Shown: one piece after another, positions 10,332 through 60,318 of the stretch | How positions within the stretch are numbered: position 1 is the stretch's first letter | Layout of the letters: each line of letters begins with the position of its first letter | DNA from: Blastocystis sp. subtype 4 | Taxonomy: Eukaryota | Direction: 5' to 3' | Length of the DNA stretch: 64,000 bases | Assembly: GCF_000743755.1 (NCBI RefSeq) | Contig: NW_014569533.1 | Coordinates: 1-64,000 of the forward strand | The notes under the pieces: model-generated | Told to the model about the DNA's origin: nothing | What the model saw: only the letters and a program-made list of their open reading frames with translations | Database searches by the model: none | Translations under genes and position numbers: made by a program

Positions 10332-11997
10332 ATGACGGATCAGTTAAAGAAAAGAGGATATGTCTGTCGAGAAGTTGTCGATACTGAGGAACGTTACGTT
10401 CACGATCTTGAGTACCACTTTACCAGCCTTGTAATTCGTAGAGTGATTGTGAATGTATTTATGAATCCGATGAAGAAGAAGAAGATCATCAGCGAGGAAC
10501 TGATCATGGGTATCTTTGGTAATATCCCGGTTCTTTTGAATGTCAACAAGAAACTTCTAGAGAGTTTAAATGCGGCTGTGAACCGAGATTCCCCTTCTCC
10601 TGATTATGCCAATGCAAATATTGGTGCGGTTCTTCTTAAATTCTGTCCCTTCTTTAAAATGTATTCCAACTACTGTAAACTCCAAACAAAAGCTACGTCT
10701 GCAATTCGTGAATTGAAGAAGACTACCAAATTTGCAAACTTCTATTCTGCATGTAAAAAGAACCCTGAAACACGAGGAATGGAATTAACCGTAGTTAATG
10801 AATTCAGTTTTAACTGATAGAGTTTCCTGATTATGCCTGTACAACGTATTCCTCGTTATCAGTTGCTTCTGAAAGAGTTACAAAAGCGTACACCTGAGGA
10901 TCATCCCGATTATCCTTTCATTGTCAAGGCTTTAGAGTGTATTGTGGTTGTAGCAAAGGAATGTGATTCTGCAATGAGCGAAAACAAGGAAAACAGCTTG
11001 AAATTGAGCATTCAGAATTCATTAGGTTCTTCATTCCAGCTAATGAAGGCATCTCGTAAGCTTCTGAAATATGGTCAAGCAGTTTGGACCCATAAAAAGG
11101 AGATTACCAATATTACTGCTTTCTTGTTCTCGGATCTTCTAATATTCAGTAACCAATTTGACAGTGAGTTGAATCTCGAAGTTATAGCAAAATATGAGTT
11201 ATGTGAGTATCATCGTTGGAGATGATTGGTAGTCATGTTTAACTATAAGTACAATGAGATCACTCCACGTGTAGTCGAAGCAGAGAATGCATTTGAACGA
11301 TTCTTTTTGGAGTTTGAATCTGTTGAACAGGCTCAAGATTGGTATACTCAAATGAGTGAGACATTGAAAGCAGTTCTAGGAAGGACCATAGGTAGTAAGT
11401 GTGAAGTGTGTTTTGGACCTCTCCAGCCTGCTTACTGTTGTCACTGTATCAAATGTGATCGTATTTGTTGTGCTGAATGCTGTGGATACATAAATAGTCA
11501 TGATCGAAAGACTTCAAGCAAGAATATGGCTTGTTTATCGTGCTTGGAGTATAATGAGAATATTTTGAATAAGAACACCGATGTGAAAGCTTTGATCGAT
11601 TCTAGGAATTCCTGTAATCGGGAGAATTATATCCAACCTGTGTTTGTATGTAATCTTGCCAAGAAACAAGAGTTGAAACTACCTGAAGGATGGGAAGCAT
11701 GTATTACACACGATTCACGTGTCTATTACTTCAATCGTTCTTTGTGGCTCTCATCATGGTCGCTTCCAAAGGAGACATTTGTAAATGATGCTCCTTATGG
11801 TTGGCAGAAGTACTATGGAGAGAAGGATGCTGGATTCTATTATCAGTCGAAAGGTCATTGTGTTAAGTTTGATCGTCCTCTGGACCCGATGAAAGCTACA
11901 GTAGGATGTCCTGATTGTGATTATGCACCTACGAAGAATGATATTGTGAAGGGAGTGTGTCCTTGTTGTAATACCTCGTTGAAGGTCCTTTCTAGTT
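10332..11997 (+). CDS. RhoGEF (DH-PH) with FYVE-like Zn finger, two WW domains and a C-terminal CxxC..CxxC; stop probably completed by polyadenylation
   Basis: DH motifs EVVDTEERYVHDL and MPVQRIPRYQLLLKEL; PH 'FLFSDLLIF'; WW 'LPEGWEACITHDSRVYYFN' and 'APYGWQKY'. TGTTTGTT at 12002. The genomic stop would be at 12011. Confidence 0.85.
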
Positions 11998-12001
11998 TAT
12001 A

Positions 12002-12009
12002 TGTTTGTT
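12002..12009 (+). terminator. TGTTTGTT 3'-end/polyadenylation motif (RhoGEF)
   Basis: Starts 5 nt after T11997, the first base of an in-frame codon. Confidence 0.75.
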
Positions 12010-12841
12010 AGAAAACAGAAGAACTTTGATTATGTTCATCTGAAACAGAAGGAATATCCTCTGTCTGTTTCGAGTCCTGTTGATTGTTATCGACTTGCTG
12101 ATTCTCTTTCAACCTCCGATTCTCCTCTTCCAATGCATCGATCCGACTCTCAAACACAGCAATCTGCTTTGCAAACGACTCTCGCTCCCGTTGAACATCA
12201 TCAGCAGTAGGAAGGTGAGACTGTTCCACAATCATTCCACGCATAATTTCCTTCACTTTCCGTAATTGCTCCTCCAGAGCATCCTTTTCTTCTGCCAACT
12301 GCTGATACTTCTCTTGCAATTTCAAATATTCTTGATAATAATAATTAACAGGACCATATAACTTATCTTCCAACTCATGCTTCTCATCTTCCGCCTCTTC
12401 CAAACGTATTCTAATATTTGCCACATCTTGTGTAGATTCCACCAATATTCCATTCAGATCAGCAATCTGTTTTTGCGCAACTTCATATAGATCCTTGTAC
12501 TTGAATGCCTCCTTCTTTTCCTCCTCTAATTCTTCGATTCGTTTTTCACACTGAAAGACAATTCCTTTCATATTCTCCAACATCCTTTGGGAACGAGTAA
12601 ACCTTTGTGATAGTCCTTCCATAGCATCCTCCCAAGTTTGTTTTTCTTTTTCATACTGTTGTTTATCTACATACTTTGCACTGATAGAGTCTTCTGTGGC
12701 ATAATGAACTCCTCCTTCCTCCACTTGAACAGCATCAATATCAAAATCACTGGAGAAACAAAGATCATCGCTACCCCAATCATTGGACTCTCCCACTACT
12801 TCATTTCCACCATTTAGATCATTTTCAACCAACTGATTCAT
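12008..12841 (-). CDS. Hypothetical coiled-coil protein (277 aa, intronless)
   Basis: Clean ORF with E/K/Q-rich heptads. Confidence 0.7.
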   Translation of the reverse strand: MNQLVENDLNGGNEVVGESNDWGSDDLCFSSDFDIDAVQVEEGGVHYATEDSISAKYVDKQQYEKEKQTWEDAMEGLSQRFTRSQRMLENMKGIVFQCEKRIEELEEEKKEAFKYKDLYEVAQKQIADLNGILVESTQDVANIRIRLEEAEDEKHELEDKLYGPVNYYYQEYLKLQEKYQQLAEEKDALEEQLRKVKEIMRGMIVEQSHLPTADDVQRERESFAKQIAVFESRIDALEEENRRLKENQQVDNNQQDSKQTEDIPSVSDEHNQSSSVF

Positions 12842-12978
12842 TTTTCAAGACTCCTGATAACGATTATGTTCATTTCTAACAGGGATAAAGCATTCTATTT
12901 GGTAAATGCTTGAATTTCCATTTTAATCCTTTCAACTTGCTTCGCTTGACAACGAATCAACTCTCCAGAATCACTTCT

Positions 12979-15173
12979 ATGAGTGTTTGTGAGTTCCAAA
13001 TCGTTCTACCTCAAGTTCCATTGCTTCAGGATATGACCTCTGTTCAAGATACAATTGCATCAAGATGGGAAAAGTGGTTCAGTGATAATCCCCTCCTTTC
13101 GATTCCTACATCTGAGGATGATCCGTTTCTGAAAGATTGTATTCTTCCAGAAAAGATTCAATGTACTGAGAAAGAGACCTATCTTCGGAAAGCATTTGCA
13201 CCTACGAAAAATCCTCTACTCAACACAGCTCAAGTTCATGTGATCATGGCTTTCATGGATCTCATGAACTCGCCGAATGATGCTCTCGCACTTCGTGTTC
13301 TTCTTCGTGACAGACTTCTTTGTTGTTGTGGCGAAGAATATACAAATCTCATTCAAGTATCCCTATTAATTCTCTGTTCTCTAGAAAGTGGAATATGCTG
13401 GAGATTACTTTCGTCTTCTCTTACTCTATTTTAATCCCGCACTCACCTTTCGACTTGATAATCAATTCAAAGGATGGGAGGACACAATATGTACATTCAT
13501 CATCGATCCAGCTTCATACCTCACGCCACATCAACTATGGCTTCTATTTGAACCTCTTCAAGCAAGTCCACAACGATCTGTTCTGTGGTTAATGTTGTGG
13601 CTTGTTCATGTATTTTGTTTACATGAATCAACTGGTACTTCGTTTGATGTAAATGATTCATTGTACTCTAATCTAGCAATATCTACATGAAGTGCTCAAG
13701 GATGTAACGGTGATGCCATCAACAACTATGATCACACAACTCATCAATTCCTCTCAAGAAGCTATCGTAATATCAACGTTCAATTCTCATCTAGAATGAT
13801 ATCTTCTCTGTTCTCAGCAATGAGCGACCTTTCTCGCTTCCCATGCATTTTTCAGATGTAGCGAATTCAGTGTATATCAAGTCTAGATTGTTGGACCTGT
13901 TATTACAACTGAACATCGCTATAAGAAAATGGTACCACACACACTACCTACAATCAGTAGTCGATATGTCGTACTTGACATACGAAAGAATGTGGCTGCC
14001 AGAAATGACTTTGTCAATGTGGTTGATGGGTGTGTAGAGGCAACCTTATTCTCCTCACTCTCAACCAATCAAACGACTCAGATTCGATATATTCATGTTC
14101 CTTATTCATCGACTCATACAGAAGGAAACACTTATTATGCCTTCTGTGAGCCATATAACTATGTACACATCCAATCCATGCTTTAGTAATAGCCACTTAT
14201 CATTCTCGCTGACAATGCTATGGAAGCAAATGTGGTTGCTTTGCTTCTTCAGAAGGATCATCGTCTTCATGTTTCCATCGCTCAGTATGATCCATCCAAT
14301 AAACAAGACTTCCCTCAACTCTTGGATATTCTTCTCTCAAGTGACTACAGTACACCAACCACTTCTTTCAAACCTCCTCGAGGAATGTTTGGAGGATGGA
14401 CTTGGTGGAAAGGATGGGCCACAACCAGTGATAACGAAACATCTAGCAGTGAATTTTATCGTAGTGCTAGTGTAGAAGAGGAACGAATCATCATCGCTGA
14501 AGCAACGTCATCCAAAGCCTCCAAGACAGAAGAAGGACATTCCAAAGGATACTTTGATGCTATTCATTCCTGTCTGGATAAACTAGTTACGGAAGTCAAT
14601 CAAGTGGAAGTCGGAGCAACGATTACTTCCCATCTTCTCACCATTGTCCATTCTCTTCTCTATACCCATCCTGTTGTGGTCATTCCTGAAAGTGAAATCC
14701 AAGAAGGGGTGTCTGCAATTGAAGCAATGCATGTATCCACTTCGATTGATGGAAAAGAGATGAATATGAGTTCGCAACTTCGTGGTTCTCATCTCCTCAT
14801 CCTCACAGAATCTAAATGTCTGCTTCTAGAGGAGAGTAGTGACTCCAAACCAGAAAAGACCGAAGAACCCATTGAACAGACGCAAACCGATTCTGATATA
14901 TCAGCAATTGTATCCATTGTCAACAATTTCCTTCCCATTTTTAATGATAATGAGCCTTTCCAGTGCGACAACTACATTGCTAAACTCAATATTCCTCTCG
15001 GTGATATCCAACTTATCAACATTCTTATCAATGAAGACGATTCAAATCAATCCAAAGCCCAAATCATTCACATCAAATATGCATCTCACGAAAACATCTT
15101 CCTTCAGGTGGATTATGCCATTTTCATCGTCAACGAACTTATGCATCGTATTGGAAAGATTCCTTCGCATTGA
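12979..15173 (+). CDS. TBC1D23-like protein (divergent TBC, rhodanese-like and C-terminal PH-like domains)
   Basis: Spliced fragments FRLLLLYFNPALTFRLD (compare TBC1D23 FRLLxQYHEPELC) and YVVLDIR (rhodanese-like first strand); C-terminal region rich in beta strands. Confidence 0.55.
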
Positions 15174-15175
15174 AC

Positions 15176-15183
15176 TGTTTGTT
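15176..15183 (+). terminator. TGTTTGTT 3'-end motif (TBC1D23-like)
   Basis: Starts 5 nt after the T of the genomic TGA (15171). Confidence 0.75.
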
Positions 15184-15257
15184 GGGACACTTGCTCAATT
15201 AGGGATACATCAATTGTCGACTTCTTTTGCCATTCCATTATTTCCTATGACCTCCAT

Positions 15258-17214
15258 ATGATAGCCCGGAAGTGGTTCATTGGTCGTTTATTGTATGGAT
15301 CCTTGTTAACAAGGCTCACTTGAAGATTACCAAGAGCGTTACTTCAACTCCATCATCATACTAGTTTTCTACGACCTATGGGTATCACTAAAATTAGTTC
15401 ATGATTTGTAGCTACGAAAGACTTTTCTAAGGGATATAAGTTCATTACTGAAGGGAGTGCAACCATTCTCTTCCCAGAGAGTAATGATGTATTCTATAAT
15501 AAGGTATTACCCAATAATCTGGTCCAATGTAGGTTCAAGTGAAGAATCGAGACCTTTCCATTCTTATGATCACTTTGTTTGGAGAATTGCAACAACAAGA
15601 ATGGGATCAATTGAAAGTATCCAAGCCCAAGCGATATGAAGGAATTATGGCTGAACGCAAGAAAGCAGCAGAAGCAGAAGGTATCTATGTACTTTTTTCA
15701 TTACAATCAAGGTAAACCATGGATTGCAGAAGAGGGTTTGTACATTTTGGAAGCCCTTGCTGCTTCAGGTCTTCGTAGTATCCGCTACTTCAACGAAATT
15801 CCTAATATTCGTCGAATCATCATTAATGATATTGCAGATGCAGCCGTAGAAAGCATGAAAGACAATCTCGCTTATAACAACATTACATCGAGTCGAGTAG
15901 TTCCAAATCAGGCGTACAATTCATTATTCCCATTCACTTCAGAGATGCAACCATGATCATGTATCAGAACCGTTCTCCTTCCTATCATTGTTTTGATGTG
16001 ATTGATCTTGATCCTTACGGTTCATGCAGTATCTTTCTCGATGGTGCAGTTCAATCCATTCGTGATGGAGGTTTGCTCTGTGTTACGAGTACTGATCTGA
16101 CTGTCCTTTGTGGCAATCATCCTGAAGTAGTGTTCACCAAATACGGAGCAAATTGTCCCAAAACCCCATTTTGTCATGAACTTGCTGTACGTATTCTTCT
16201 GTACACAATTCAGATGACTGCTGCTAGATATGGAAGAAGCATGGAAGTCTTAGGAGCTTTCCAAATTGACTTTTATGTGCGTTGTTTCGTTCGAATGTAG
16301 ATGTCTGAAATAGACTCAATTTTAGTCATGACAGTAAACTGGCCATTAAGCATTGTGCAATGAATTCTTCGCTTCTGTACTACTGTAATAATTGTCAGAA
16401 CTTCCAATTGCAGCCATTAGGCCGAACACATAGTACCCAATTGTAAGAGATCTGACGTCCAGAAGACAATACGTCCAAATTCCATCCTCCCAACTGTGAG
16501 GTTGATTCTCATTGTCCTTTGTGTGGTTCTCAGTACCGTGTAGGATTTATCATCCTCTTGTTAGCTAGCTTGGAGGACCAATCTTCAATGGTGCGTTACA
16601 CGATCATGTCTTCATCCAGAAGGCTATCGATCGACTCACTCAGCTCTATGTTACAAAGGATCCAGTGGCTGTTGCTGCCAGTCACTATCAGTGTTCTACT
16701 CACAGTATCTTGCTAGGACTTCTCACTGCAGTGAGTGTTGTAATTTCGTCTGATTCACAGATGCAAGAGGAGGTTCCTTCACCACTCTATTATAGCTTCC
16801 ATGGAGTCACATCTTCGCTCCGTCTCACTGCACCTAAGTATCAGGAAATCGCTTCGGCTTTACGCCATGCAGGGTATACCCAGTCGCAATGCCATTGTGA
16901 TCCATTAGCCCTCAAGACCAATGCTCCTGGATCTGTTGTGTTTGATATTTTTAGGGCCTATTTCCGTCAATTCCAGATGGAAGAGAAGAAAGATTGGCTG
17001 GAGCAATTGCCGGATTGTTTTGCAAAACAGTATCTGTCGCAACCTGCAGAAGGTGAGGTAGGATAAAGAAGAGAGAATTATGGAAAGTATGACTTTACGA
17101 TACTTCCAGACCTGAAGAAGGATTATGAATTCCCGCGTTTTCCTGGGAACCCGGAAGCGAACTGGGGACCGAAAGCCAGAGGCAGTTTGAAGAGGACAAA
17201 GTTAAGTGAGAATT
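15258..17214 (+). CDS. TRM1: tRNA (guanine26-N2)-dimethyltransferase, with optional N-terminal organellar presequence
   Basis: Motifs ITEG, VFYN..VQVKNRDLS, ILEALAASGLRSIRY, FDVIDLDPYGS, GGLLCVTSTD, KTNAP and PRFPGNPEANWGPKAR. ATGs at 15258 and 15378. No genomic stop before TGTTTGTT at 17219. Confidence 0.93.
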
Positions 17215-17218
17215 CGTT

Positions 17219-17226
17219 TGTTTGTT
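17219..17226 (+). terminator. TGTTTGTT 3'-end motif (TRM1)
   Basis: Starts 5 nt after T17214, the first base of the codon following ...LSEN. Confidence 0.8.
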
Positions 17227-17248
17227 TTATGTCATTGTCCTTCATCTC

Positions 17249-17779
17249 ATGGAAGCAGAAACCAAATCTAGTTCTCCAATTTCAAGGGATGAATGGAGAA
17301 TGATAATGAGAAAGAATTTCTGCAGAAAAGACATGATTGATGAAGATGGTAATTTAGTCAAAGAGTCAATTATATGATGTTCCACTAATCATATAGATAC
17401 TTCCACTTAAAAAAGTTAAAGACTTGGACACTTCGGGAGGAGTATCTTCTCATTGAGGGAATCCAAGCATATGGGGTTGGAGAATGGGAACGAGTCAGGA
17501 GGGATTACCTTCCAGATTGGGTAGATGTGGTATAGGAAGATGATATTTTAGGTTACAGAAGATATTCGGCTGAAAGCTTGCAGATTATTTGGTATTCAAC
17601 ATATTGAAACATATCAAGGGTTTAAAGGAGGCAAGGAAGAGATTCAACGAGTAGAGTTTGGACATGATTATCATGTTTTAGGAGTGGGAAAAGAATCGAG
17701 AACGTGGAATTGCACAAAATTTGTGGTATAACAATGTTCTCATTGATAAGCGATTTGGGTTGGTATATAAAGATGTATG
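17249..17779 (+). CDS. Small Myb/homeodomain-like protein resembling p2, an accessory subunit of the MTA1c (AMT1) DNA N6-adenine methyltransferase complex
   Basis: Absent from the ORF track. Exons 17249-17364, 17397-17520, 17552-17650 and 17682-17779 with 31-32-nt GT-AG introns give 145 aa: MEAETKSSSPISRDEWRMIMRKNFCRKDMIDEDGNLVKEYFHLKKLKTWTLREEYLLIEGIQAYGVGEWERVRRDYLPDWVTEDIRLKACRLFGIQHIETYQGFKGGKEEIQREWEKNRERGIAQNLWYNNVLIDKRFGLVYKDV. Confidence 0.8.
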
Positions 17780-17806
17780 GAACTCTTTGTTATCAATCCA
17801 ATTTCT

Positions 17807-17814
17807 AACAAACA
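17807..17814 (-). terminator. TGTTTGTT 3'-end motif (CBP/p300)
   Basis: AACAAACA on the + strand, 5 nt past the T of the minus-strand TGA (17819). Confidence 0.75.
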
Positions 17815-17816
17815 TG

Positions 17817-20800
17817 TCAGATTTGCCTTAATCGAGACAAATAGTGTGGCACTTTGCATAATATGTCTGTGCACGTATCGATGTGGGCATCAAAGATACG
17901 TTTTAATTCTTTACACAAACTACACTTGTTACTGGTACAAAACAGATAATGTTTGATTGCAGCTCGAATAGAGGAACAATAAGGAACACTACAATCTGAA
18001 GCCGTACATGTAAAGCAATGAGAAAGAGCTTCACTCTGAATCTCAAATGGTAGAGATTTGCCAAACTATACATCAAATCCGCCTCACAGTCTTACTGATG
18101 AATTGGATGAAATTGAGTGAGCTGTAACTTCAACCTCAAAAGGAACCAGTTCATGTTCATGAATCCTGCAATTGTCACAGAGATCAAAATCGTCACATAT
18201 TCTGCAATGCCACCGTTTCCCAGAAATAATATAATTCTTACACTAAACTTCATCTCCACATTCTCTTTCTCACCTTATTGCATACATGTACTTCCGTGGG
18301 AATTTGTGGATTATAGCAGTGAAACAAAATCATCATTGTACTGTACACAGCTCTTCGTATCTATATCTGATTCATGTCTCTTTCATATACTTGATCGAAC
18401 TGATAATGATAGAATTGGCAAATTGTCATAAAAATCTGTCGGCTTTCAAACATACGACAGACAAGCCAATTATTCCTCTCTTGAAGAGTTGGAGCAATTG
18501 GAGGTATTGTCACAGCAGCATCTCGCTCCATCACAGGAAGTCCAGAAAGACATGTCTCACACACGTATTTCTGTCGTGTGATTTCTTGACGTCCAGTACG
18601 ACTCTTAACCACAGGCTCCACCCAACACTCCTCTGGGATACAGTAATGAACCTGATCTCGAAGGTACCGACCACACTCACAGCATTGATGCTGGAGCTTC
18701 ACAACTAACAAACGAACACGAATATCCTTCAACGAAGCAGCCACAGTACTCAGTAACTCACCCTTCTTTGCACGACGACGTGGTGCAGTAGTGAGTGATG
18801 ACTGTGACTTATCATCCTCTCCAATGCTTACATCCGAATCACCTTCCTCAGGTTGAGGACATACACATCCTGGATTCGCTAATCGTTCCTTGCATCGTTC
18901 ATCTGTCTCCTTTACCCAGTAATCATCACTAAACTGTGGAACATACAGCAATGCTGTATCTTCCATTCTAATTCTCATTCATTCTTCCCAATTCACACGA
19001 TCGTTTGTATCTTCCACTCAAATACTCCTCAGTCAAATTTGACACATCTGTCACAATCTGTTCTCGATTTGCTCGACTCAACAGTTCCATGTACCATCGT
19101 TGCAAATGTTCTGTTGTTGGAGTACGTTGTTCCTGTGGATGTGAGAAGCTATTCCTTACTCTCTCTTACATAGTACTTACAACACATAGTCGTCGCCTTT
19201 CCGAGGTGGACATACCCAGATATGAGCTGTGTTGAATCCTTTCTCTTTCACATACGCCAAGTAACCAATCACCATCTCCTGATATACAGAAGTACGATAA
19301 CTTGAAGGACTAAGGAAACGAACACTATCCAGATACGAGATATAAACTGATCGAGTGTTACTCACTGAAGCTTCTGGACACTCGTAGACAAACATTATGA
19401 AGACCAACACATCCATTTCATGAATTGTCTATGACAAAAATAGTACCGATTTTGTACCTGAAATAAACAAAGACATTTTTCGATATATGGGATTTTGGAA
19501 GGGAAATTGAAATTGTGGAAATACTTCAGAAAATGTTCACCTACTGAATATTCCGTTTTCTAGCTATCAAAGAGACATGACAAATACATTGTTTAAGAAC
19601 AATCGAACTCTCAATCCTTCAGGAGCGGGAACAGAATCAGGAGTACAGTTCAATTCTTTGGCTCGTTGCTGACGTTGGCGTAGAATTAGACTATGAATTC
19701 GATTCTCCAAAAAACGACTGATTTCTGTCTCCTCGAAATCTGAGAATTAGTTCACTCCTTCATGAATACCTGTGACAGAAGGTATATATAATGTAGCACG
19801 TTCAGTAATACAATTCTCATGCAAATCAAGGATACATTGAGGACAATGAAAAATGAATGCATGATCTTGCTCATAGAGTCGATTATTGAATAGAACACAA
19901 ATTGTATGAAATGACTGATGACAATGATCGCATCGAATCCATTCTTCTTTCTCCTTGTGAACATTCATCACACATTCCAAGCTAGATTTGCGATATTCTT
20001 TTCCTTCACACTCAAATACATCTGTTAGTCTTTCATAACAAGCTTCACACCATACATGCTGACCTTCCTTATCTCTATAATACTTCTTGTTTAGCTCAAT
20101 TACTTCCAGACAGCTTCCACTACAATGTAATAATTGTCCTTCTAGCATATAACAGCCTCCCGAACATAATCCACAAATCGTGCCTTTTTGGTCCTTTTGA
20201 TAGGAATCACGAAGAGAGGTGTTTCGGCGCTGTAAATCAGTAAAGCGCTGCTGAAAATACAATTTGATATATGTGGAATAGTTTAAAATGGAGGAATCGC
20301 GATTAAAGCTCTCACAGTTCGAAAACATGCGTTGTAAGGCTTTCTGAATACTTTGAATGCTTTTGAAATCGAAATGTTGATTTGCCTTCTCAAGAGACTC
20401 CAAGTCAACAGGATTTGTAATACGTTGATAATATTCGCTACATCCTCTTGCTGTTACATCTACTGGATAGTGAAATAACTTCTGAGAACTATGCATCAAC
20501 TGCAATCTTCATAAACACTCTTTGATCTTGATATCGTGGAGTAAATGAGAGATCTCTATCTTTAGAGTCGATGGTTTCCACCAAGGAGAAGTTGTATCCC
20601 GTAGCATTTGCATGTAATCCATAAGCTAATAAGGAACCTATAATATTCATAATTATACCTGTTTATCTGTCATAAGCATGAAAGCAGAGGGAAGAAGATG
20701 ACTGCGAAGGTCAAACTCTCGATTCTTCTCCTAGGATTCAACCATCATTCTATCCACTACAGCGTGATATGCTCGAGCTTTAGCACAATAATTACAGTCT

Positions 20801-36495: not shown

Positions 36496-36531
36496 ACCTG
36501 AAAGGGTTCCTTTTCACTTCTATTTAGGAAT

Positions 36532-41999: not shown

Positions 42000-42021
42000 A
42001 CATGTTTGTAAATAACACAAC

Positions 42022-45798: not shown

Positions 45799-45811
45799 AT
45801 TCTTGAAATGA

Positions 45812-45837: not shown

Positions 45838-45864
45838 GTTTAGGTATTTCATTGTTCTTTTGTA

Positions 45865-48800: not shown

Positions 48801-50171
48801 TACTCGATTCCATAATCAGTAGGTTTTTCTGTCATTTTCAAATTCCAGATCCATCGTGTATTTTGGGAATAACAAAGATAGATTCCAGCTCCAGTTTCCT
48901 GATGCTGTTTGTCAACGTTTAGGTGCGATGCCAAAGGAGTTCACATTGAAATCTCAACGCAAAGGAGTGAAGCGATTCTGGACACCATTCATTACAGAGA
49001 AATTCACTCTGTTGCAACGAGTAGGCATATGCCCAGGAGTACTTATTGTAGTTGGAGGAGCAGAAACAGGATTTGTTGAAGACTGCGACAGCGGACGTGT
49101 TTCACAGCTTCTATCGTGTAATAATTGGGAGAATGATCCATTTGTAGCACCATCAGAATTGGTCACGTTTGGTACAATGTGCAGGTCAATTGGATGCACT
49201 ACGATCACTAGCAGTCACATCAACTGCTGGAGATGGTCGTGGTGAATGTGTTCGACCTATTTTTGTGCCTCGAGGAGCCACTGACAGAGCAGTCCTGGAG
49301 ATTCGAGATTCAAGACATCCCTGTGTTGTAACAACATTCAGTCGAGGTGATTTCATTTCAAATGATTTGATGCTTGGAGGTGAGGAGACTCCTCTGTGTA
49401 AGATAATCACAGGACCCAATATGGGAGGTAAGAGTACTCTTCTTCGACAAATGGCTGTAAGTATCATATTGGCTCAAATTGGTTGCTATGTACCAGCTTC
49501 ATATATGAAGTGTGAATGAGAGAGAAGTATGATACGTAGACTCTCCCCCGTTGATCGAATCTTCACACGAATTGGAGCACAGTATGAATGGAGGATTTGA
49601 GATAACGTCCAGAGATCGAATACTGTCAAATCAATCAACGTTTTACGTGGAATTAGTAGAAACATCGCTTATTCTCGCTAATTGTACGCAAGACAGTTTT
49701 TTGGTTATTGACGAACTGGGTCGTGGGACAAGTACATTTGATGGTTCAGCTATCGTATATGCTGTATTGAAATATCTCTCAAATGTGAAGCACTGTCGAA
49801 TGTTGTTCTCTACTCACTACAATTTTATCATCACTTCATTCTTAAATCATCATTCTATTAGCACTGGATACATGTCATATTTACTTGAAAAAGGACAGGA
49901 TGGAGAGGAAATGGTCACGTTCTTGTATAAGTTGGTTGAAGGCATATGTCCTGATAGCTTCGGCATAAATGTTGCTCGATTAGCAAATATTCCTGAAATA
50001 GTCCTTAAACGTGCAAAAGAAATGGCTGATTCATTCAGTATTGATTTGAATCTGAGAACACCAGAAGTTCAGTTGTTTTTGTATGAACAGTTGATATCCA
50101 AAATCAAAGAGATTCCTTTTGGAGAGCATTATGAAGAGAGAATACGTCATCTACTAAAGAATGTAATTTAG
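45865..50171 (+). CDS. MSH6: DNA mismatch repair protein MSH6 with PIP box and Tudor domain
   Basis: KKTIFDFF (PIP-like); Tudor IGRRIRVYWP..YDDGEYEWI; YDPTSLSIP; KVGKFYE; HAGFPE; TGPNMGGKSTLLRQ; DELGRGTSTFDG. Confidence 0.95.
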
Positions 50172-50190
50172 TTGTGATATGTTTGATAGT

Positions 50191-50198
50191 AACAAACA
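50191..50198 (-). terminator. TGTTTGTT 3'-end motif (gamma-COP)
   Basis: AACAAACA on the + strand; the minus-strand T at 50203 starts the codon after ...MSLLQ. Confidence 0.8.
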
Positions 50199-50202
50199 AA
50201 TG

Positions 50203-53200
50203 ACTGTAAGAGAGACATTAATGTCTGAATCAACTCATGATCTTCTGAACGAATAGCAATCTACATTTAACTTCATTTTACATGCCCACTTTCAACACAC
50301 ATCCATATTCCTGAGAGAGAATTAATTGACAACGAGCCATTACTAACGTCTGTCCTAATACTTTACCAGCCAGAATCATTGTATGGTTTGTTGACTACGT
50401 TTCACATAAAATCCAGTTCCTTACTCCAATTGGTACACGATCGCTTCCTTCAAATACATGAAGACCCAACACTTCAACAATGGACTTCACAGCTGTACTC
50501 AAGTCCTCGAAGGACAAACTCATCTTTTCCACAACCTCATTCTCTGCAGTTAGCTCATTCCAAGCAGCACGATAGTCAGGAAGAATAGGTCGACTGATAT
50601 AGTCACTCAGCTGAATAGAACAGGCTTCAACAGGATACTCTTCATTGTATCCTTCAATTGTATCCAACTCATCCAGCTCATCCTCTTCTGCATCCTTCGC
50701 TTCGAACTTCAATGTTACATCAAATGTGGCCTCAGGAATTTCTTCAGGATTGAACTCCAGAGCGATGTAACAAGCCTTTTCCTGTCCATAGAGGATCACA
50801 GGAGCATCAATCTGAGCTATGGGATGCCACTGCTCGGGATCACCTTCTGTCAATGATAGCTGAACTGTCACGTTGGTCATCACCTGACCTTCAATCGTAT
50901 TTTTGATCTGGAACTGAAGGACAACATGAGAAGCAAAGACATGACGAATCACACTTACCACGTATTCTGTCTCCTCTTCTGTTAACATCGTACGATGACT
51001 TGATCGAATCACACACCCGTACTCAGCAAAAGCAGGAATCTGATACAATTCGTTTGATGATGGCTCTGCGGTAGTTTCAGATTCCGTTTCTGTGGCCATA
51101 CCCTGGACAGATGCTTCTTCCTTCTTTCTTGGAACCTCAGCTACAACCGGGAGAGTCGAATATTCTAAACTGCCTTCAGAAGGTCGCATCTGATAGGTCT
51201 GAAGTGAAGCACGTAATTGCTTTGCAGACATGGGAAGATGGCGGAAAAGAAGTTTCTCTCGCTCAGCAGGATCTGCTTGAAGAGCAGCTAAGGCTGTAAC
51301 AGCACGATCACGCACCTCATCACTCTCATCAGTCAGACAACCACGTAACAGCTCCTGAACACTCTCACGTACACTCTCAACACGACCAGCGAACTCACCA
51401 AGAGACTGAACAGCAGCAGCACGTACAGAAGCACCTTCCAAAATGATCCGATTGAAGATAAAACGAATGAAGCGAGAAGGAGCCACAGCTGTTGGACCAT
51501 ATTCAGCCAACACATGAAGGATTCCAATAATTATCTGAGGATACTCACAATCCTCAATGCATTCACATAGATGAAGGAGGGATGGTTCCTATGAATAATT
51601 CTGGAATTCCAAAAATACAAGGGATTCTGGAATTCGTTTCATCATTGCAATAATTGTATCTACAATAGCTGCCTTCAGCGCCTCTGATCCTTCCTAATCC
51701 TCAGTCCAATAACCATAGACTACATTACGAAGGATTCCACTTAAGAAGGACAGAAGAGCGTCATATTTCTCAGGGAACTTCGTCGAGAGAGTGAGTAACG
51801 CATGAACCAGAACCTGTTTAAACTCATCATCAATCTCACTCATGTAAGTAGAGATTTGTTTCAACAATGGGTCAATTCTATTACTCATAACCTCATCATC
51901 ATATCCACCTTGAAACTTCAACAGTCTTCAACAGAGTACTAACAGCCAGAGTAGCTACAGAACGATTGGAATCATTAACAAGCGACTCCAAATCACTATT
52001 ACAGGTCTCAACGATTGTAGGATGAGCAATGCTCAACTATAAATCAACGGGGGATCTTGTGAGTACTTGATTGAGAATACGAACCGCAGCGAACTTCGTA
52101 ACAGTACGAGAAGAACCCAAATGAATTTGAAGCATACTTACCACTGGCTGTAAATCTTCATCACGCACATCAGGAAGAGTTACGAGGGCCCGAGCAGCTT
52201 CAAAACAAACCATCTAGAATGAAACGACTTAATGATTCTCACATCACTCGTGTGACGCAGACAACGCAATAGTAAGTCGTAAATATCATGAGAAACCTCT
52301 GAACTACCATCTTCTCTCAACAAACGAACACTGTATCGAATCAACATACACACAGCAAGAGGACTCGTTGGAAGATGCTGACGCAATTGAGTGACCAGTT
52401 TATTCAAGGCTAGTGCATCATTCTGCTTCATTGCATAGAGTAACAATAACCCATGATACTGAACCATCTCATCCTCATATGTCAGAGATTGATTAATCTC
52501 ATTAACCCAACGACGTACTAATTCAGGTGCAATAGTAAAGAGATACAAACCACAGAGAAGAGCTGAGGAAGCTACACAGGGATTCTTATGAACGATAGCT
52601 TGTTTGATGTAACGCTCCACTTGAGCTAACATAGAAGCCTACACTGAGATTCAACCAATAACAGTACATCCAGAATACGACTTAGAACACGAAGACTATT
52701 AGCGCGGAATAATTCATTATCGGAATTCAGATCCTTCAGCAAAGTACTGACAACGATGATCACTTCTTCAGCAGAGGTCTTCTCAGCAACTTCCTTGATG
52801 AACAAATAGGTCATTCGACGCAACTTTGGCTACATATGAATACTCAATAGTAATGGTGACATCCTGGCTCTGGAACAGTTTTGTAGCTCCAAAAAACACA
52901 TCTGTAACCTCGCTACTTGACAATGTTTCACCCTCGACAACCACAAGATACAAGACCTTTGAAATGAGAATACAGCAAAGATCCGGTTTCTGAGTCACTG
53001 TATCCGAGTCATTAAAAGCCCTGCATTCTTGTAGAACAACCGATTTGGTCAAACCATAGAAGGGTGACTCTGTTCATTAAAGCATAGACATTCATCTCAC
53101 TTTTAAGGTCATCATCTTTGTCATGACCTCCCATATCGAAGAATTCTTTCCTGATGATGTTGAGGACAGATTCCGGTTGATCGTCTTGCTGCCCCTGATT

Positions 53201-53224
53201 ATTCGTTTGCGAATTATTCTGCAT
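50203..53224 (-). CDS. COPG: Coatomer subunit gamma
   Basis: [65 protein letters not shown]. Confidence 0.95.
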
Positions 53225-53368
53225 GTTCTGTAATCACAATTCTCCTTCAATTGAGATTATTTGGTCATTTCAAGATGATGCCAGAAATCGGTTCGATTTC
53301 TTCACTCCTATAGTGTTTTTAGAGTCGTGGAATCGTGAGGATTGTCTACCTGGGTCTTAACAAGTAGA

Positions 53369-54036
53369 ATGTCCAATTCTGTGGAGGATCAAGAGAACGG
53401 AATCATTGCCGACCTCGAGCATATGATCGAATCCTTAGAATATGAGCGATCTAAGAACGATATCCAGACGTATCTGCGTGTTTCGCAGTCGCTGGAGGGA
53501 CTTCTAAGCAATGAGAAAACCGTTAAACATATGAAGGATTTTGTGATTGATGAACGATGTGAAGAGAATATCCTATTCCTTATTGATGTCAATGAATATA
53601 AAAAGATGTACGGTGACGATAACTACAATCCATATCAGGTTTGTCTTGGAGGGGCTTCTAATGGGTAGAAAATTCTGAAGGTAAACAAGATCGTCAAGCA
53701 ATACCTCATTCCTGTGTGATCTTTATGTTTCTCTCATTCTTTAGGGCGAATCATACTCACAGCTATATATTCCATTATCTGTGATTAATGAATTCAATGA
53801 GGAATACAGGAAATGGGATCGTGTGATTCCAGAACCTACCAAGGAGGATCTTCCTCCAATTAGTCTGTTTGATAAGGTGGAGAAGGTAGTTTTGGAGACT
53901 GTACGAAGGGTGAAGGCTTGATTGTACATTGATGTGTAGACGAGTTACCAGAAGTTTATTCGCTCTGCAAACATTCACCGCTTGCTTGCTATGACTGTCC
54001 AGGACATTGTGATCTCACACAAACCTGTGGAATTAT
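53369..54036 (+). CDS. Stand-alone RGS (regulator of G-protein signalling) domain protein
   Basis: LEGLLSN..FVIDERCEENILFLIDVNEYK; KIVKQYL; LFDKVEKVVLE..SYQKFIRS; three short introns. The stop would be completed by polyadenylation. Confidence 0.75.
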
Positions 54037-54040
54037 CGTT

Positions 54041-54048
54041 TGTTTGTT
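54041..54048 (+). terminator. TGTTTGTT 3'-end motif (RGS gene)
   Basis: Starts 5 nt after T54036, the first base of the codon after ...PVEL. Confidence 0.8.
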
Positions 54049-54070
54049 CCAAACACGTTTATTTATGCGG

Positions 54071-56253
54071 CTAAACATCTTCTTTGGGTGATTTCTTCAA
54101 AAAATAGTTTGTAATGGCAGGACTCTGAATCATGCTCTTTTTGACTCGAGTTTTCCTAGGAGACTCTGTAACCTTCTTCTCCTTCTTTCCAACATTTGCA
54201 ACTACATCAAAGATAGAAGATGCTACAACAGCCGCTTTCAATCCTGTTCGAAAAGGAGTTCCCTGTCGTGAGTGTTGGGATGAACTACGAGGAGAAGAAG
54301 ATAAAGAAACTGCAGGCCGCTTCCCTTCAGGAGTAACCAATCCCTCTGCTTCGCGCTTCTCTGGGTGACAATTGGTATCACTCTCCATATCCAATATCAC
54401 TTCTTCATCAATCGAACTTGCTACGACAAAGCGTTGTTGTGAATGCTGTGCAAGAAGGATTTGACTTTGATTCGAAAGAGGAAAGGGCCGTCGCCACAGC
54501 ACATCATCCCCCACCTGACTATCTGCCACGATTCCATCTTGAATCGAATGAGAATTGGTCACATTCTCCTTTCTAGGACTCAAACACTCGTCACACAACA
54601 TGTTCTGTAATGGATTCTCTTCTGGTTGTTGTGAGAGGAGTTGTGATGCTAGCTGGCTTCCTAAAATACAGTACTCAGCCTATTCGTTATTCCCAACTTC
54701 GATTTCAACATTCACGATCCAAGGATGTTGTAAGGACTCAGCTGCTGTTAAACGCAGAGATGGATCACGAACAATCAGTCGATGAATCAAATCCTTCGCC
54801 ATCTCTGAAACACCCTTCCACACTGGCTTATCAAAGGATACGTCTGCTCGAAGGATTTGCTGTGACAGCTCAGAAGAACCAAAAGGAAGTTCACCAGCCA
54901 AAATCACATACATAAGAACACCAACAGACCACATATCCTATCAGTGATTCATAATTAACATGACATTTACCACTGCACTGTTGTAACTTCCAATTCGTTG
55001 ATTCCCACGTAACTCTTGGATTTCAGGAGCAAAATACTGAGGAGTTCCACATACAGTATGTAACCCATCGGCTGCATATTTTGCAAGTCCAAAATCAGTG
55101 ACTTTTATTGTCACATTCTCATCTTTGTAAACCATTAACACATTCTCTGGTTTGATATCACGATGAACAATACCCTTGCTATGAAGGTAGTCAATCACCT
55201 CTAGAAGATTCTTCATTAGACCACGAGCATCAATCTCATTGAAATGGCCCAACTTAAGAATCCGATCAAACAGATCTCCTCCTGTTACCAATTCCATAAT
55301 GATATAAATATTCTTCTATGGATGAATAGGAGTCAATGAACACACTTTGCCACGGATAATCTCTTTCATGAAGGGGATGCCAGGATGATCCAGACTAGCT
55401 AGCATTTCTGCTTCACGAAGAATTGTACGGATTTTATCATCCTATATATTGCATTTATAGACCAAACATACACGATTACGAATCCTCTTCAAATCGATGA
55501 TCTTCGCTGCATACATATTCCCTGAAGAACGTTCACGACAGAGCTTTACTTCACCAAAGGACCCTTTCCCAAGACCACCTTCAATAATATACTTCTCTTC
55601 AATTCCATCCATTCTAATCAATAATCATACTAAGCTAGTTCAACTCCTGCGAAATAAGTGAATCTGCAATTCGGAGAGGAATCGCTGGATCTTGAAAAAT
55701 GAAGGCATGAAGATGTGTGGCCGTTTTACAGCTCGCTGGAAAGGCAAATCCGATATTATCTCCCTACAACTAAGCAAGAGAACAAAACCACACATGTGTC
55801 AAGCAATATGGTTCATTCTTGGCAATCCGGGTTTCATTGACAAGAGTACCATTAGTACTTGTGTCCACAATGAACACTTTGTTTGGATCCAGACTCCTAT
55901 CTAGAAAGATGTAGGCATGATTCTACATTCAATTCCACCAAGAAAATGGTACAGAACTAATATAATTCTCAGGAAACACAAAATCGTTGTTGGGATGACG
56001 ACCAAACGAGAACTATTTTGAAACCTTATTCATGAACTCACTTTATCTTTTCCCTGTAGATCAATACAGGGATCCGAAGTCAAACTAATGAGCTTTCCCC
56101 AGAGACCAACCTCCTATTCAATTACAAACAAAAACAAAACAAACAGGATACAGTGAGTTCACCTCCTGCGTCTGGGGAATCACTCTATACTTAAAACAAG
56201 AAGAAGGTAGCCAACGGTTCTCCCAAAGCCTGAGTCGCCGGAATATCATTCAT
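54071..56253 (-). CDS. Chk2/Cds1-like FHA-domain Ser/Thr kinase with SQ-rich C-terminal tail
   Basis: N-terminal ATQ; FHA WGKLISL..FGRHP..ISS; kinase GLGKGSFGEV, HRDIKPEN, DFGLAK, CGTPQYFAPE; tail GSQLASQLLSQQ...QSPAITNYF. Confidence 0.8.
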
Positions 56254-56303
56254 TGACTAATAAGTCAATATGGAGTGAGAAAACGAAAAGTACAAAAGAA
56301 AAA

Positions 56304-56377
56304 TGCTCAAACGGGGGATCGAACCCCAGACCTTCGCGTTATTAGCACGACGCTCTAACCAGCTGAGCTATTCGAGC
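56304..56377 (-). tRNA. tRNA-Ile (AAT)
   Basis: Reverse complement GCTCGAATAGCTCAGCTGGTTAGAGCGTCGTGCTAATAACGCGAAGGTCTGGGGTTCGATCCCCCGTTTGAGCA folds as a cloverleaf with an AAT anticodon. Confidence 0.95.
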
Positions 56378-56568
56378 ATGTATGAATTCAAAACAAGTAG
56401 AATACGAGACTTTGACTGAATGCATCATAACAGATTGAAGTGTGAATGCCTTGTATAGAAGAAGTTGAAAAGGTTAGCAAAGTAAGAGAGAAAGAAGTTC
56501 ATTCATCTCCACTTTCATTGTTGATTCCTTTTGTCTTGGCTTTTGTTGCGAATTGATCAGACAAGAGC

Positions 56569-58321
56569 ATGAGTATTGCGTACCAACAAGCAGCAAACGT
56601 CATTCAGCAGTTTTGGGACAAAAAGGCTTCATTGAAAACTCTGATCTACGGCTCGAGTTTTCCTAAGAAGGTACAAGAAATCAAGTTCATTGATGGGGAT
56701 TAGGGATACTTGTTTGCATTGTGTACTAAAACGCTTTCAGCACAAACTGTTATTGATGGTATTGTTGAGAATTGTCCATCTCTTTCGCGTCACGAGATTT
56801 CCAAGAAGGCCCTTTTGTACGTTTTATTATATGATGAAATCTTTGGAGAAGGTTGTCGTGTAAGAAATGAGAGTGGATAGTGATGAAAAGGGTGGTGGTG
56901 CGCTAATTCGAACCATTCGGGAATCCAAGGACGAAATTGTATCTTATTTGAATTCTCGAATGAAAGAAACTGGAGTAACCTCATTCCAAGAATTGCTGCC
57001 TCAACGAGCTGAAGTTGAAGTGAAAGTAGAGAGAATGGTTCATAGTTAGAATTGGAGATTTCTTCGAGTCAATCGTTGCAAAACAACTGTAGATAAAGTG
57101 TATCAAATCCTTAGCCGTATGACTTGTTCTTTGCTAGTTAACTCTAGAGGAGTATGGAAATGAGAGTATCCAACGAGACGAATTAATGGATTGTGTTCTA
57201 AAGATCCGTCACTCCATCGACCTTCATACACATCCTCTCGTGCTTTCTCAGTCTGTGATCCTTCAAACTAAAGCATCTTGTTTCCCACCATTCCTTCTTC
57301 TCCGAGATCTCTATGATGGAACCAAACATCTCCCAGAGCGATGTGATGTGATCGATGCCACTGCTGCTCCTGGGAACAAAACCACATTTCTGGGTGATAT
57401 CCTTCGTACCCAGTAGGCTCGATTTTTGTATCTCTCCTAGAGGAACAGTCTTTGCATTTGATCGAGATGAGAAGCGATTTCGAATACTTCGTTCTCGTTG
57501 TAAGGAGTACAGAAGTGGGAATGTAACCCAGAGAATGATATTCTCATCCTTAGATTCAATGTATGCATGCAGACTTCCTTCAGACCAATCCATATGCCTC
57601 TGAGTTCATTCATGTTCAACGGATTTTATTGGATCCATCGTGTAGTGGAAGTGGAATGAGTCATACTTCGTTGGTTTCATTCTCTTCTCTATTTCATTCA
57701 TAGGATCAGACACCTCCCTCTCAAGAGCGTCTTCAGTCTCTTACTCGCTTTCAATTACGGTGTATTACTCATGCAGCCCAGTTTCCTTCAGTAACACGAA
57801 TCAGTTACAGCACATGCTCAGTATATGAAGAGGAGGATGAGAAAGTGGTTGCAGAAGCATTGCGTCAACTCAATAGTGAGAAGGAGATGTGGCATTTAGA
57901 GAGAATCTGTGAGGAAGTACCGTGTCGTGGACATGCAGTGGATGGATTGACTGCTGCTCAAGCGGAATGTGTGGTACGATGTGAAGTGGGAGATGGAATG
58001 GGTCAGGGTTTCTTTGTATGTGTATTTGTGAGAGATTCTGGAATTCCATTAAGCGAAGCAGAACGTAAGAAGAAAGAGAAGGAATATATGGAATCTCTGA
58101 AGGAACCAGAAGCTCCAGTCGCTCCTACAGAACAGAAGAAGGTGATCGTAGAAAAGACAAAGAAACGAATGAAGAATTCGAAGGTGGATCAGGAGAAGAA
58201 GGCATTGAAGGAGAAGAAAACTCAGCAGAACATCAGTACATCCATAAATTATGCTTTAAGAGCTCAACAGGAACATCCAGGTAAACACAAGAAGAAGATT
58301 CCTTTAGGCAAATCATACTGA
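56569..58321 (+). CDS. NSUN5: LSU rRNA cytosine-C5 methyltransferase (NSUN5/Rcm1-like)
   Basis: RFLRVN; ILQTKASCFP; IDATAAPGNKT; FAFDRDEKR; ILLDPSCSGSG; YSTCS..EEEDEKVV; GFFVCVF. Confidence 0.88.
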
Positions 58322-58323
58322 TG

Positions 58324-58340
58324 GGTTTGTTAAACAAACA
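58324..58340. terminator. Back-to-back 3'-end motifs for two convergent genes
   Basis: GGTTTGTT on + (58324-58331) and AACAAACA, i.e. TGTTTGTT on - (58333-58340), separated by 1 nt. Confidence 0.65.
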
Positions 58341-58344
58341 TGAA

Positions 58345-60318
58345 TAGAGTATATTCCAATCAACCATACAACTATTACAACGGTATTCATTGATACGCCG
58401 TCGACTGATGGTATTAGCATGCTGATACTGAAGAACTCGAATTAATCGTAGACTACAAAATACACATTCTTCTCCTTGCAAATAGGCTATATAACAACAA
58501 GGACATACCAACACCTCTCCTGTAGGAATCGGTTGGAATGATAAAGGACAATAATCATCAATACTTGATAAGAGACACCATGAAGCGTGATTCCTGTGGA
58601 GGAATGTCTTCTCTCCACAACATTCACATTCAGTCCATTCATCCAACGGCTCTTCAGAAGATCCTTCCAGTTGTCTGCATATCCATCGAGATCCTGCATC
58701 AGACCGCGACCGAAGTGCTTCCAACCACAATCGTCGTCGAAGAGTCAGTAACTTATCAACAGCATCCGTCTGTGACCCAAACCACCATGGTTTCCCTTGT
58801 CTCATCATTACTGACACATAAATGTGAACACATTGAAGTTCTTGAGTCGAAGCAGCTGGAATTTGTTCCCAGATTGTTGCAAAAGACTCTCGAGCCATTT
58901 GTTGGGTTAGAACCACAGTAGATGGTAACCATTCAGTGTTCATTAGTCCATAGGACTTTAGAACTAAGAGTTGCCGAGTCATGTCAATCGAGGTGGTTCT
59001 TTGCGAAGTAATCACTTGACTTGCAACCAGAATCGCCGAAGTCTGGAAAGAAGCACTCCCCAAATAAATCACATCAGAATACCGAGCGAAATCCGATGGG
59101 ATAGAATAATTAACGAGAATCTGCGATTGAGCAAGATCAATAACCTGATAATGAAACTGTTTAGTGATACACTGAATGAGAGGAGTTTCACTGATTGCAG
59201 TACAGAAAGCAACTCCTTCTGTTACATCAAAGAACCATTGCCTGATCAACTCTCCATTCTTTGTATCAATCCATACAATTCTGACACCATCTGATACCAG
59301 AAGACACTTTCCGACTTGTTGGATCCACTGAATACTGGGTTGGAGTGGCATTTCTATTTCATGGATTGATGATATGTTCCAGAGAATCTCCACATTGGCC
59401 GAACCCCTTGCTGATTCCAGAGGGGTTAGAACGAGAGACCATAATGAATGCATCTCTCCACCTTGGAGTCGAAACTGAAGACTTGTCATCTCCTCCTGAC
59501 TAGTCTTCGGATCTGACTGATAGGAGGACTCTTCATCTTCTATTTCCATTGTATCAGAGGGCTGAGTAACTACTTTTGAAGTATCGAGAATATGAGGGAC
59601 AATACTCAGTAATCCACCAGAAGCTGTGCCAAGAACCAATTCATCATTCAACCAGCAGAGAGAGGTGATAACAGTATTACAAGTAAAGGAACCTTGAAAC
59701 TGAATCATGGCCTCATGGTCGTTGCAGGTCATTGAAAAGAAGAAAATGGCAGCTTCAACTGATACAGCAAACAGAGAATGATCATCACTAAAGGCAGCTT
59801 GAATTGTAGTTACAGAAGAGCAACTCTGTTGGAACAATTCTGAAGATGTAATTAATTCGGACAAGTCACATAGAACTTCCATTTGCTTAAGAAAGAACGA
59901 GGATGGCATTGTCCATATCCGTATTACTGGAAATAAATCTGCTGTGAGTAGAAGAGGATTTGAAAACCCTCCAAATCCTTTTGGAGCCCACTGACATAAG
60001 ACAGGAATGTGATGATCCTTTCCATTCAACAAATCTGGAAATTGAATTGGCACCTACGCAATCAAGATTACATATCACTAGAACTTGTTTCTTCTTGTTC
60101 TTGTTCTTGAGTTCTTCCTCCTCTATTTCAGGATTACTATTTACAGAAAGATCAAAAACATCCTTAGTATATGGATTCAATACAAAACAATCCATATCAC
60201 TCAGAATTCCCAACAATCCATCGTTGGACACAGATACGTTCCTACAATATCGTTTTCGCACTGCAATCGAATAGAGTGTCTTTTCGAAAACATCCGATAC
60301 AACAATTGTATGATTCAT
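58345..60318 (-). CDS. WD40-like beta-propeller protein with C-terminal Cys-rich Zn finger; possibly TFIIIC delta (GTF3C4/Tau60)-like
   Basis: WD-like 'ITSLCWLNDELVLGTASGGL'; C-terminal ECECC...CPLSFQPI....CPCC....CVFC resembling zf-TFIIIC; N-terminal 'VSVSNDGLLGI'. Confidence 0.5.

What the first reader, a model, noticed from the sequence alone, without database searches (positions are those of the whole stretch)
11997..58346. Stop codons absent from the DNA and completed by polyadenylation in about six genes
Seen: TGTTTGTT begins exactly 5 nt after a base that, followed by poly(A), makes an in-frame stop. Cases: RhoGEF T11997 (TAA), TRM1 T17214 (TAA), COPG minus T50203 (TAA), RGS T54036 (TAA), the WD40/Zn gene minus TA58346-58345 (TAA), and p2-like TG17778-17779 (TGA, variant motif TCTTTGTT). 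Without this, several frames would run into the neighbouring gene. Established: this mechanism is known for Blastocystis nuclear genes. The ORF-track C-termini of these genes are therefore likely wrong, and the mRNAs would have no 3' UTR.
Basis: partly seen in the sequence, partly recalled or inferred. Interest (0 to 1): 0.7.

Follow-up and report, generated by a model that had tools for sequence, protein, structure and literature searches.

The report
Blastocystis stop codons finished by poly(A)
In this stretch of the gut protist Blastocystis, six genes lack a stop codon where the protein should end; RNA shows the poly(A) tail completing it in one gene and it likely does so in the other five, which is a mechanism already published for this organism.

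Summary
Real, and already known. The window is Blastocystis nuclear DNA, most like subtype 4 (GC 40%). TGTTTGTT occurs 22 times against 4.1 by chance. All six cited bases lie 5 nt before the motif, in frame, and give TAA or TGA once A's are added. For RhoGEF a spliced RNA contig ends in 24 A directly behind T11997. Two control genes with DNA stops are tailed at the same offset. The other five have no tail read. Their orthologues in other subtypes end at the same residue (within one), with a DNA stop or with T plus motif: 15 of 15 rows that reach the end. Read-through would overlap a neighbour in 6 of 6 cases, three by only 4 nt. I add a seventh candidate (T12022, minus) and note that genes switch between DNA-encoded and tail-made stops across subtypes. 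This is the mechanism of Klimes 2014 (PMC4159000), found in 15-26% of genes. The scan noted look-alikes before in other organisms (Giardia, Rozella, a diplomonad, a virus), none in Blastocystis.

The parts
10332..11997 (+). RhoGEF (DH domain, weak WW hit, Cys-rich end), 525 aa, ending ...LKVLSS; T11997 plus tail gives TAA
   Evidence: Pfam RhoGEF; RNA contig 11100-11997 with intron 11203-11232 and 24 A behind 11997; two upstream introns inferred from sequence
12002..12009 (+). TGTTTGTT downstream element of RhoGEF
   Evidence: 4 nt behind the observed tail
12010..12017 (-). Variant element TGTTTTCT, abutting the RhoGEF element on the other strand
   Evidence: the same 16-mer lies between the WD40/Zn and NSUN5 orthologues in L003, where both cuts are in frame
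12022..12841 (-). Gene of no known family (likely coiled-coil, my reading); seventh candidate, T12022 plus tail would give TAA; DNA stop lies 4 codons later
   Evidence: in frame; 2-mismatch motif; RNA contig stops at 12059 with no tail; orthologue ends differ in length, so not informative
15258..17214 (+). TRM1 tRNA dimethyltransferase ending ...RTKLSEN; T17214 plus tail would give TAA
   Evidence: Pfam TRM; last intron 17058-17087 fixed by spliced proteins P0003 and P0014; L005, L006, L010 carry a DNA stop at the same codon; no RNA cover
17219..17226 (+). TGTTTGTT element of TRM1, 23 nt before the next ATG
17249..17779 (+). Small Myb/HTH-like gene (p2-like), 145 aa; TG17778-17779 plus A would give TGA
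   Evidence: three introns seen in RNA; frame; L005, L006, L010 end at the same residue with T plus exact motif; contig ends at 17736 with no tail
17784..17791 (+). Variant element TCTTTGTT
50191..50198 (-). TGTTTGTT element of COPG
50203..53224 (-). COPG (coatomer gamma) ending ...LMSLLQ; T50203 plus tail would give TAA; start position approximate
   Evidence: Pfam COP-gamma; last introns 50395-50424 (loose end) and 50261-50289 (orthologues); L003 has TAG at this codon, and L005-L008 and L010 have T plus motif
53369..54036 (+). RGS-domain gene, 192 aa, ending ...KPVEL; T54036 plus tail would give TAA
   Evidence: Pfam RGS; intron 53714-53744 in RNA, two others inferred; L003 and L004 end ...PIEL with T plus motif
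54041..54048 (+). TGTTTGTT element of RGS
58333..58340 (-). TGTTTGTT element of the WD40/Zn gene
58345..60318 (-). WD40/Zn gene, probably TFIIIC90/GTF3C4, 647 aa, ending ...DWNIL; TA58346-58345 plus A would give TAA
   Evidence: Atlas lead 0.98 with low recognition score; homologue P0002 (67%) ends ...DWNVL; L003 has T plus motif there
50175..50187 (+). Control: MSH6 tail site (50175), 4 nt after a DNA TAG, with variant element TGTTTGAT at 50180
   Evidence: 23 A behind 50175
61301..61313 (-). Control: cathepsin tail site (61313), 12 nt after a DNA stop, with exact element at 61308
   Evidence: 24 T before 61313

Best explanation
These Blastocystis genes end without a full stop codon: the RhoGEF mRNA is cut 4 nt before a UGUUUGUU element and its poly(A) tail turns the last U into UAA, and the other five genes likely end the same way. 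Shown: motif enrichment, the 5-nt spacing at three tail sites in this window, the in-frame stop at T11997, and equal protein ends in other subtypes. Inferred: cleavage at the other five sites. Inferred: that the element positions cleavage through a CstF-64-like protein (hypothesis of PMC4159000; a motif mutant cut reporter output 324-fold, PMC6395660). Inferred: that ribosomes terminate at a stop that abuts the tail. Because the cut is so exact, selection on a DNA-encoded stop is probably relaxed and the 3' UTR can shrink to nothing.
For: Poly(A) at T11997 on a spliced contig, and the genome behind it is not an A-run. Same offset at 50175 and 61313. Only offset 5 works for all 7 ends. 15 of 15 orthologue rows that reach the end of the five other genes stop within one residue; 2 further COPG rows are truncated. 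Across 13 genes, 0 of 42 rows with a motif gave 'no stop at the cut', and all 17 orthologue rows lacking a DNA stop were completed in frame (about 11 independent gene-by-lineage cases). P0002 ends at DWNVL. The RNA-based subtype-4 model P0014 is flagged partial and ends one residue past the site. L001, an independent assembly, matches 40398-54375 but for 1 base, so the missing COPG and RGS stops are no sequence error.
Against: Only 1 of 6 sites has a tail, from one contig of one run whose RNA status is a guess in the record, although its contigs are spliced and tailed. Contigs drop rare isoforms, so minor read-through mRNAs are not excluded. Six exact motifs are internal, antisense or unresolved, so the motif alone need not mean cleavage. 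No protein-level evidence.
Confidence: 0.95

Rival explanations
1. The five genes without a tail read use the next genomic stop, carry 11-37 extra residues and overlap their neighbours; the motif spacing is coincidence.
For: No tail seen at these five. Genomic in-frame stops exist 11-37 codons on. ORF-called proteins with the extension are in the databases (P0001 cluster).
Against: The extensions run through the motif and are not shared by the orthologues, which stop at the predicted residue. Chance per site is about 0.09. The database extensions come from gene callers that need a DNA stop (inference).
Confidence: 0.03
2. An unseen short last intron shifts the frame so that a DNA stop is used (candidates: WD40/Zn 58456-58428 or 58436-58405; COPG 50234-50204).
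For: GT..AG pairs of typical length, 27-35 nt, exist there. RNA contigs did not visibly cover these last stretches.
Against: The candidate introns encode peptide that is conserved and colinear in orthologues (P0002 through ...DWNVL; COPG ...QTLMSLLQ against ...QTFLSLLQ).
Confidence: 0.015
3. The missing stops are assembly errors, or the A-tail is a priming or decay artefact.
For: Single contig, single run.
Against: L001 is identical at the COPG and RGS ends. X1 shows no substitution against 11100-18300. No genomic A-run follows the sites. Three of three visible tails sit at exactly motif minus 5.
Confidence: 0.005

Closest known systems
Polyadenylation-created termination codons in Blastocystis nuclear genes (Klimes et al. 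2014, PMC4159000; Gentekaki et al. 2017, PMC5608401; Genome Res 2025, PMC12129017)
   Same: Same genus, same TGTTTGTT element 4 nt behind the tail site, same products (mostly UAA, rarely UGA: 359 and 13 in subtype 7; 5 and 1 here), same class of DNA stops rewritten by the cut, same annotation errors. Motif density is 1 per 2.9 kb here and 1 per 2,751 bp published for subtype 4.
   Different: Nothing mechanistic. These particular genes are not named in the passages I read. The 2017 paper only predicted the process for subtype 4; the 2025 paper reports the element at subtype-4 transcript ends.
Mitochondrial stop completion by polyadenylation (mammals, dinoflagellate cox3, Diplonema) and mammalian PAY* Tyr-to-stop conversion, as summarised in PMC4159000
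   Same: A's of the tail complete UAA; no 3' UTR.
   Different: Organellar processing, or a minor alternative isoform; no GU-rich element at a fixed distance.
Dual-use stop codons of Giardia and Naegleria (PMC11529991)
   Same: Extreme shortening of 3' UTRs in compact protist genomes.
   Different: There the stop is fully in the DNA and overlaps an upstream hexamer signal.

Membership tests
Blastocystis poly(A)-created stop codons | Nuclear genes of a human-associated Blastocystis subtype | tested here: met
   The TRM1 cluster holds near-identical proteins named Blastocystis subtype 4; introns 28-33 nt; GC 0.402 against 39.4-39.5% published
Blastocystis poly(A)-created stop codons | TGTTTGTT (up to 2 changes) enriched and 4 nt behind the poly(A) site | tested here: met
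   22 against 4.1; 3 of 3 visible tails at motif minus 5
Blastocystis poly(A)-created stop codons | No in-frame DNA stop before the cut; last base(s) T, TA or TG in frame | tested here: met
   6 of 6
Blastocystis poly(A)-created stop codons | Transcript shows the tail at that base | tested here: met
   RhoGEF T11997 only
Blastocystis poly(A)-created stop codons | Transcript shows the tail at the other five sites | tested here: inconclusive
   TRM1 had no cover and the p2-like contig ends at 17736; no tail listed for COPG, RGS or WD40/Zn, with 20 of 36 loose ends hidden
Blastocystis poly(A)-created stop codons | Protein end agrees with homologues | tested here: met
   15 of 15 orthologue rows for five genes and P0002; no RhoGEF homologue found
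Blastocystis poly(A)-created stop codons | No alternative longer 3' isoform; translation ends at the made codon | not testable with these tools
   Only contigs were served; needs raw 3'-end reads and proteomics

The most novel reading that the evidence does not exclude
The stop at a given codon switches repeatedly, in both directions, between DNA-encoded and tail-made across Blastocystis subtypes, as a nearly neutral state under a fixed cut site. COPG and TRM1 are tail-made here and DNA-encoded in some relatives; MSH6, NSUN5, MRG and the 14193 gene are the reverse. In addition, a 16-nt two-way element can end two convergent genes that both lack DNA stops (12002-12017 here, and the same 16-mer at a different gene pair in L003). 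I did not see this in the passages read; the 2025 paper proposes relaxed selection in general terms. The direction of change is not polarised here.
Probability: 0.5. Interest if true: 0.3.

Novelty: already known. Interest (0 to 1): 0.12.

Why it matters
It corrects six or seven gene ends and gives one direct RNA example in a subtype-4-like strain. ORF-based models here gain false tails, stop in an intron, or fuse neighbours (P0001, P0013, P0022). The mechanism itself has been in print since 2014. The only forward-looking use is the orthologue pattern, which offers a simple way to measure how fast DNA stops are lost and regained.

Tried and rejected
No whole genome is held for this window, so no genome-wide count was possible. 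RNA cover: X1 contigs did not cover 15197-17124 (TRM1) and stopped at 17736 (p2-like) and 12059 (minus gene) with no tail. Depth sums suggest the COPG, RGS and WD40/Zn ends were barely covered; 20 loose ends, 16 gaps, 9 joints and 202 pieces were hidden. None of this is evidence against. A homologue search with the RhoGEF last exon among longer proteins found nothing. The Atlas gave no usable hit for a 33-aa p2-like exon. Pfam gave no WD40 or zinc-finger hit for the WD40/Zn gene. Rival last introns for COPG and WD40/Zn were rejected by orthologue colinearity. Internal priming was rejected. The -62475 motif has an in-frame T in one frame, but I could not build a credible gene there, so it is not counted. 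Base counts at -5 over all exact motifs are only weakly T-rich in the window (12 of 22, neighbouring offsets 4-11) and clearer in four related loci (19 of 29). The supplement search of PMC12129017 found only a script holding the motif; the supplements of PMC4159000 and PMC5608401 were not read and may list some of these genes.

Full report
Organism. The window is compact eukaryotic DNA, GC 0.402, with GT..AG introns of 28-33 nt in RNA contigs. Its TRM1 clusters with near-identical proteins named Blastocystis subtype 4, and published subtype-4 GC is 39.4-39.5% (PMC12129017 Table 1). No whole genome is held.

Motif. TGTTTGTT occurs 22 times (8 plus, 14 minus) against 4.11 +/- 2.02 in 100 shuffles, maximum 8. 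That is 1 per 2.9 kb, close to the 1 per 2,751 bp published for subtype 4 (PMC5608401). I sorted all 22 by reading frames. Five precede any DNA stop and give a stop at motif minus 5 (12002, 17219, 50198, 54041, 58340). Three cut inside a DNA TGA (15176, 17814, 36539). Eight hits at seven places follow a DNA stop with a short UTR (21592, 23779, 30140 and 30136, 32078, 36399, 40529, 61308); 21592 and 30140 rest on my frame reading alone. Six are internal, antisense or unresolved (7815, 34372, 38303, 42757, 56145, 62475), about what chance gives.

The six cases. Each cited base is motif start minus 5. On spliced models the base is the first of a codon (T: RhoGEF, TRM1, COPG, RGS) or the second (TA: WD40/Zn; TG: p2-like, variant TCTTTGTT), and added A's give a stop. 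A random cut in 13 coding stretches does so in 1268 of 13476 positions; 5 of 7-9 in-frame exact motifs do so (p 1e-4 to 7e-4). Only offset 5 of 1-12 works for all seven ends tested. Read to the DNA stop, the frames gain 4-37 residues and overlap a neighbour in 6 of 6 cases, by 4 nt in three and by 15, 55 and 89 nt in the others.

RNA. One run, X1, holds 71% of the words of 49500-59000; the record only guesses that it is RNA, but its contigs are spliced and tailed. On 11100-18300 it shows no substitution, and one contig runs 11100-11997 with a single intron (11203-11232) and 24 A directly behind T11997. The genome continues TATATG there, so this is not priming on an A-run. On 44001-64000 two more tails are visible, at 50175 (MSH6) and 61313 (cathepsin), both at motif minus 5 and both behind DNA stops. 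So 3 of 3 visible tails follow the rule. The three p2-like introns and one RGS intron are also seen in RNA. No tail was seen for the other five genes; that is lack of cover or hidden rows, not counter-evidence.

Orthologues. A metagenome scan with COPG gave 11 loci. L001 and L002 are the same subtype; L001 matches 40398-54375 but for one base. L003-L004, L005-L007 and L008-L010 form three other lineages at 52-71% identity and share gene blocks with the window; L011 does not reach a gene end. COPG ends at the same residue in 6 of 6 loci that reach the end (2 truncated): a DNA TAG in L003, T plus exact motif in five. TRM1 has a DNA stop at the very codon in 3 of 3. The p2-like gene has T plus exact motif in 3 of 3, RGS in 2 of 2, WD40/Zn in 1 of 1. 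A 67% homologue of the WD40/Zn protein ends at DWNVL, matching DWNIL here. The same colinearity removes the rival last introns of COPG and WD40/Zn. Over 13 genes, none of 42 rows with a motif left an open frame at the cut, and all 17 orthologue rows without a DNA stop were completed in frame. Rows within a lineage are not independent (about 11 gene-by-lineage cases), and the motif was chosen as the best match within 150 nt of an anchor.

Annotation effects. ORF-called copies of the WD40/Zn protein carry the 37-residue extension (P0001). One subtype-4 TRM1 model ends at a stop inside the unspliced last intron (P0013). Another, flagged partial, ends one residue past T17214 (P0014). A subtype-3 model fuses TRM1 to the p2-like gene (P0022).

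Mechanism. Shown: fixed spacing of tail and motif, and a tail-made UAA in RhoGEF. Inferred by orthology: the same at five more genes. From print: the element is needed for reporter expression (a mutant that also changed two upstream T's gave 324-fold less, PMC6395660 passages), and a short CstF-64 homologue is the proposed reader (PMC4159000). Untested anywhere I read: how the ribosome terminates against the tail.

What is known. PMC4159000 (parts 1-2 of 3 of the text read) reports 372 of 2,419 subtype-7 genes, 359 UAA and 13 UGA, 90 rewritten stops, and the motif 4 nt downstream in 96%. PMC5608401 (passages) reports 26% in subtype 1 and predicts the process for subtype 4. PMC12129017 (passages, section 5 and a supplement search) finds the element at transcript ends in subtypes 1, 3 and 4 and not in tortoise strains. 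PMC11529991 (passages) covers dual-use stops, a different device. Six or seven cases among roughly 28 genes (my rough count) is the published rate. Earlier notes of this scan list look-alikes in other organisms only; they did not change my reading.

Extras. A seventh candidate is the minus gene ending at T12022, whose 2-mismatch element abuts the RhoGEF element in a 16-mer also found between two other convergent genes in L003; it has no tail read, and I put it at about 0.7. The stop state differs between subtypes in both senses, which fits relaxed selection but is not polarised here.

Verdict. Observation confirmed, interpretation supported, mechanism already known. Interest 0.12.

Noticed in passing
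window 12002-12022; L003 about 3075-3099: Two-way 16-nt element (exact motif on one strand, TGTTTTCT on the other) between convergent genes; seventh tail-made stop candidate at T12022 (minus).
   Followed up: partly
window 15171, 17819 (-), 36544 (-), 58319, 41998: The predicted cut falls inside a DNA TGA. At the first four it would be rewritten to TAA; at 41998 TG plus A restores TGA. This is the rewritten-stop class of PMC4159000.
   Followed up: partly
L003, L005, L006, L010 against window MSH6, NSUN5, MRG, 14193-15173, COPG, TRM1: Stop state differs between subtypes: DNA-encoded in one, tail-made in another, at the same or a nearby codon.
   Followed up: partly
window +34372, -38303, -56145: Exact sense motifs inside genes: C2CD5-like coding region, 5' coding region of an IF-2 gene, and a probable kinase intron. 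Cleavage at the first two would give no in-frame stop.
   Followed up: no
window 60318-60331 (-): The MRG-like gene's variant element ends immediately before the ATG of the WD40/Zn gene; 13 nt separate stop and start. L003 has the same layout with a tail-made TGA.
   Followed up: partly
window 58345-60318 (-): The WD40/Zn gene is probably a divergent TFIIIC90/GTF3C4 (Atlas 0.98, TFIIIC_delta on 39% of cluster members, recognition below threshold; no Pfam hit).
   Followed up: partly
window 3-7145 (+): Intron-free open frame of at least 2380 aa with many roughly 87-aa repeats and a hydrophobic stretch near the end; looks like a bacterial-type Ig-repeat surface protein (recalled resemblance, not scanned).
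   Followed up: no
window 12059-13915: One RNA contig spans the minus gene and the divergent plus gene; overlapping 5' ends or an assembly join.
   Followed up: no
window 36422-36496 (-), 56303-56378 (-): tRNA-His(GTG) and tRNA-Ile(AAT) lie in tiny intergenic gaps.
   Followed up: no
window 62300-62800 (-): Possible small spliced gene upstream of the cathepsin with an exact motif at -62475; structure unresolved.
   Followed up: partly
L005, L006, L010: In two other lineages the block at window 12-17.8 kb lies between cathepsin and COPG, which shows rearrangement between subtypes.
   Followed up: no
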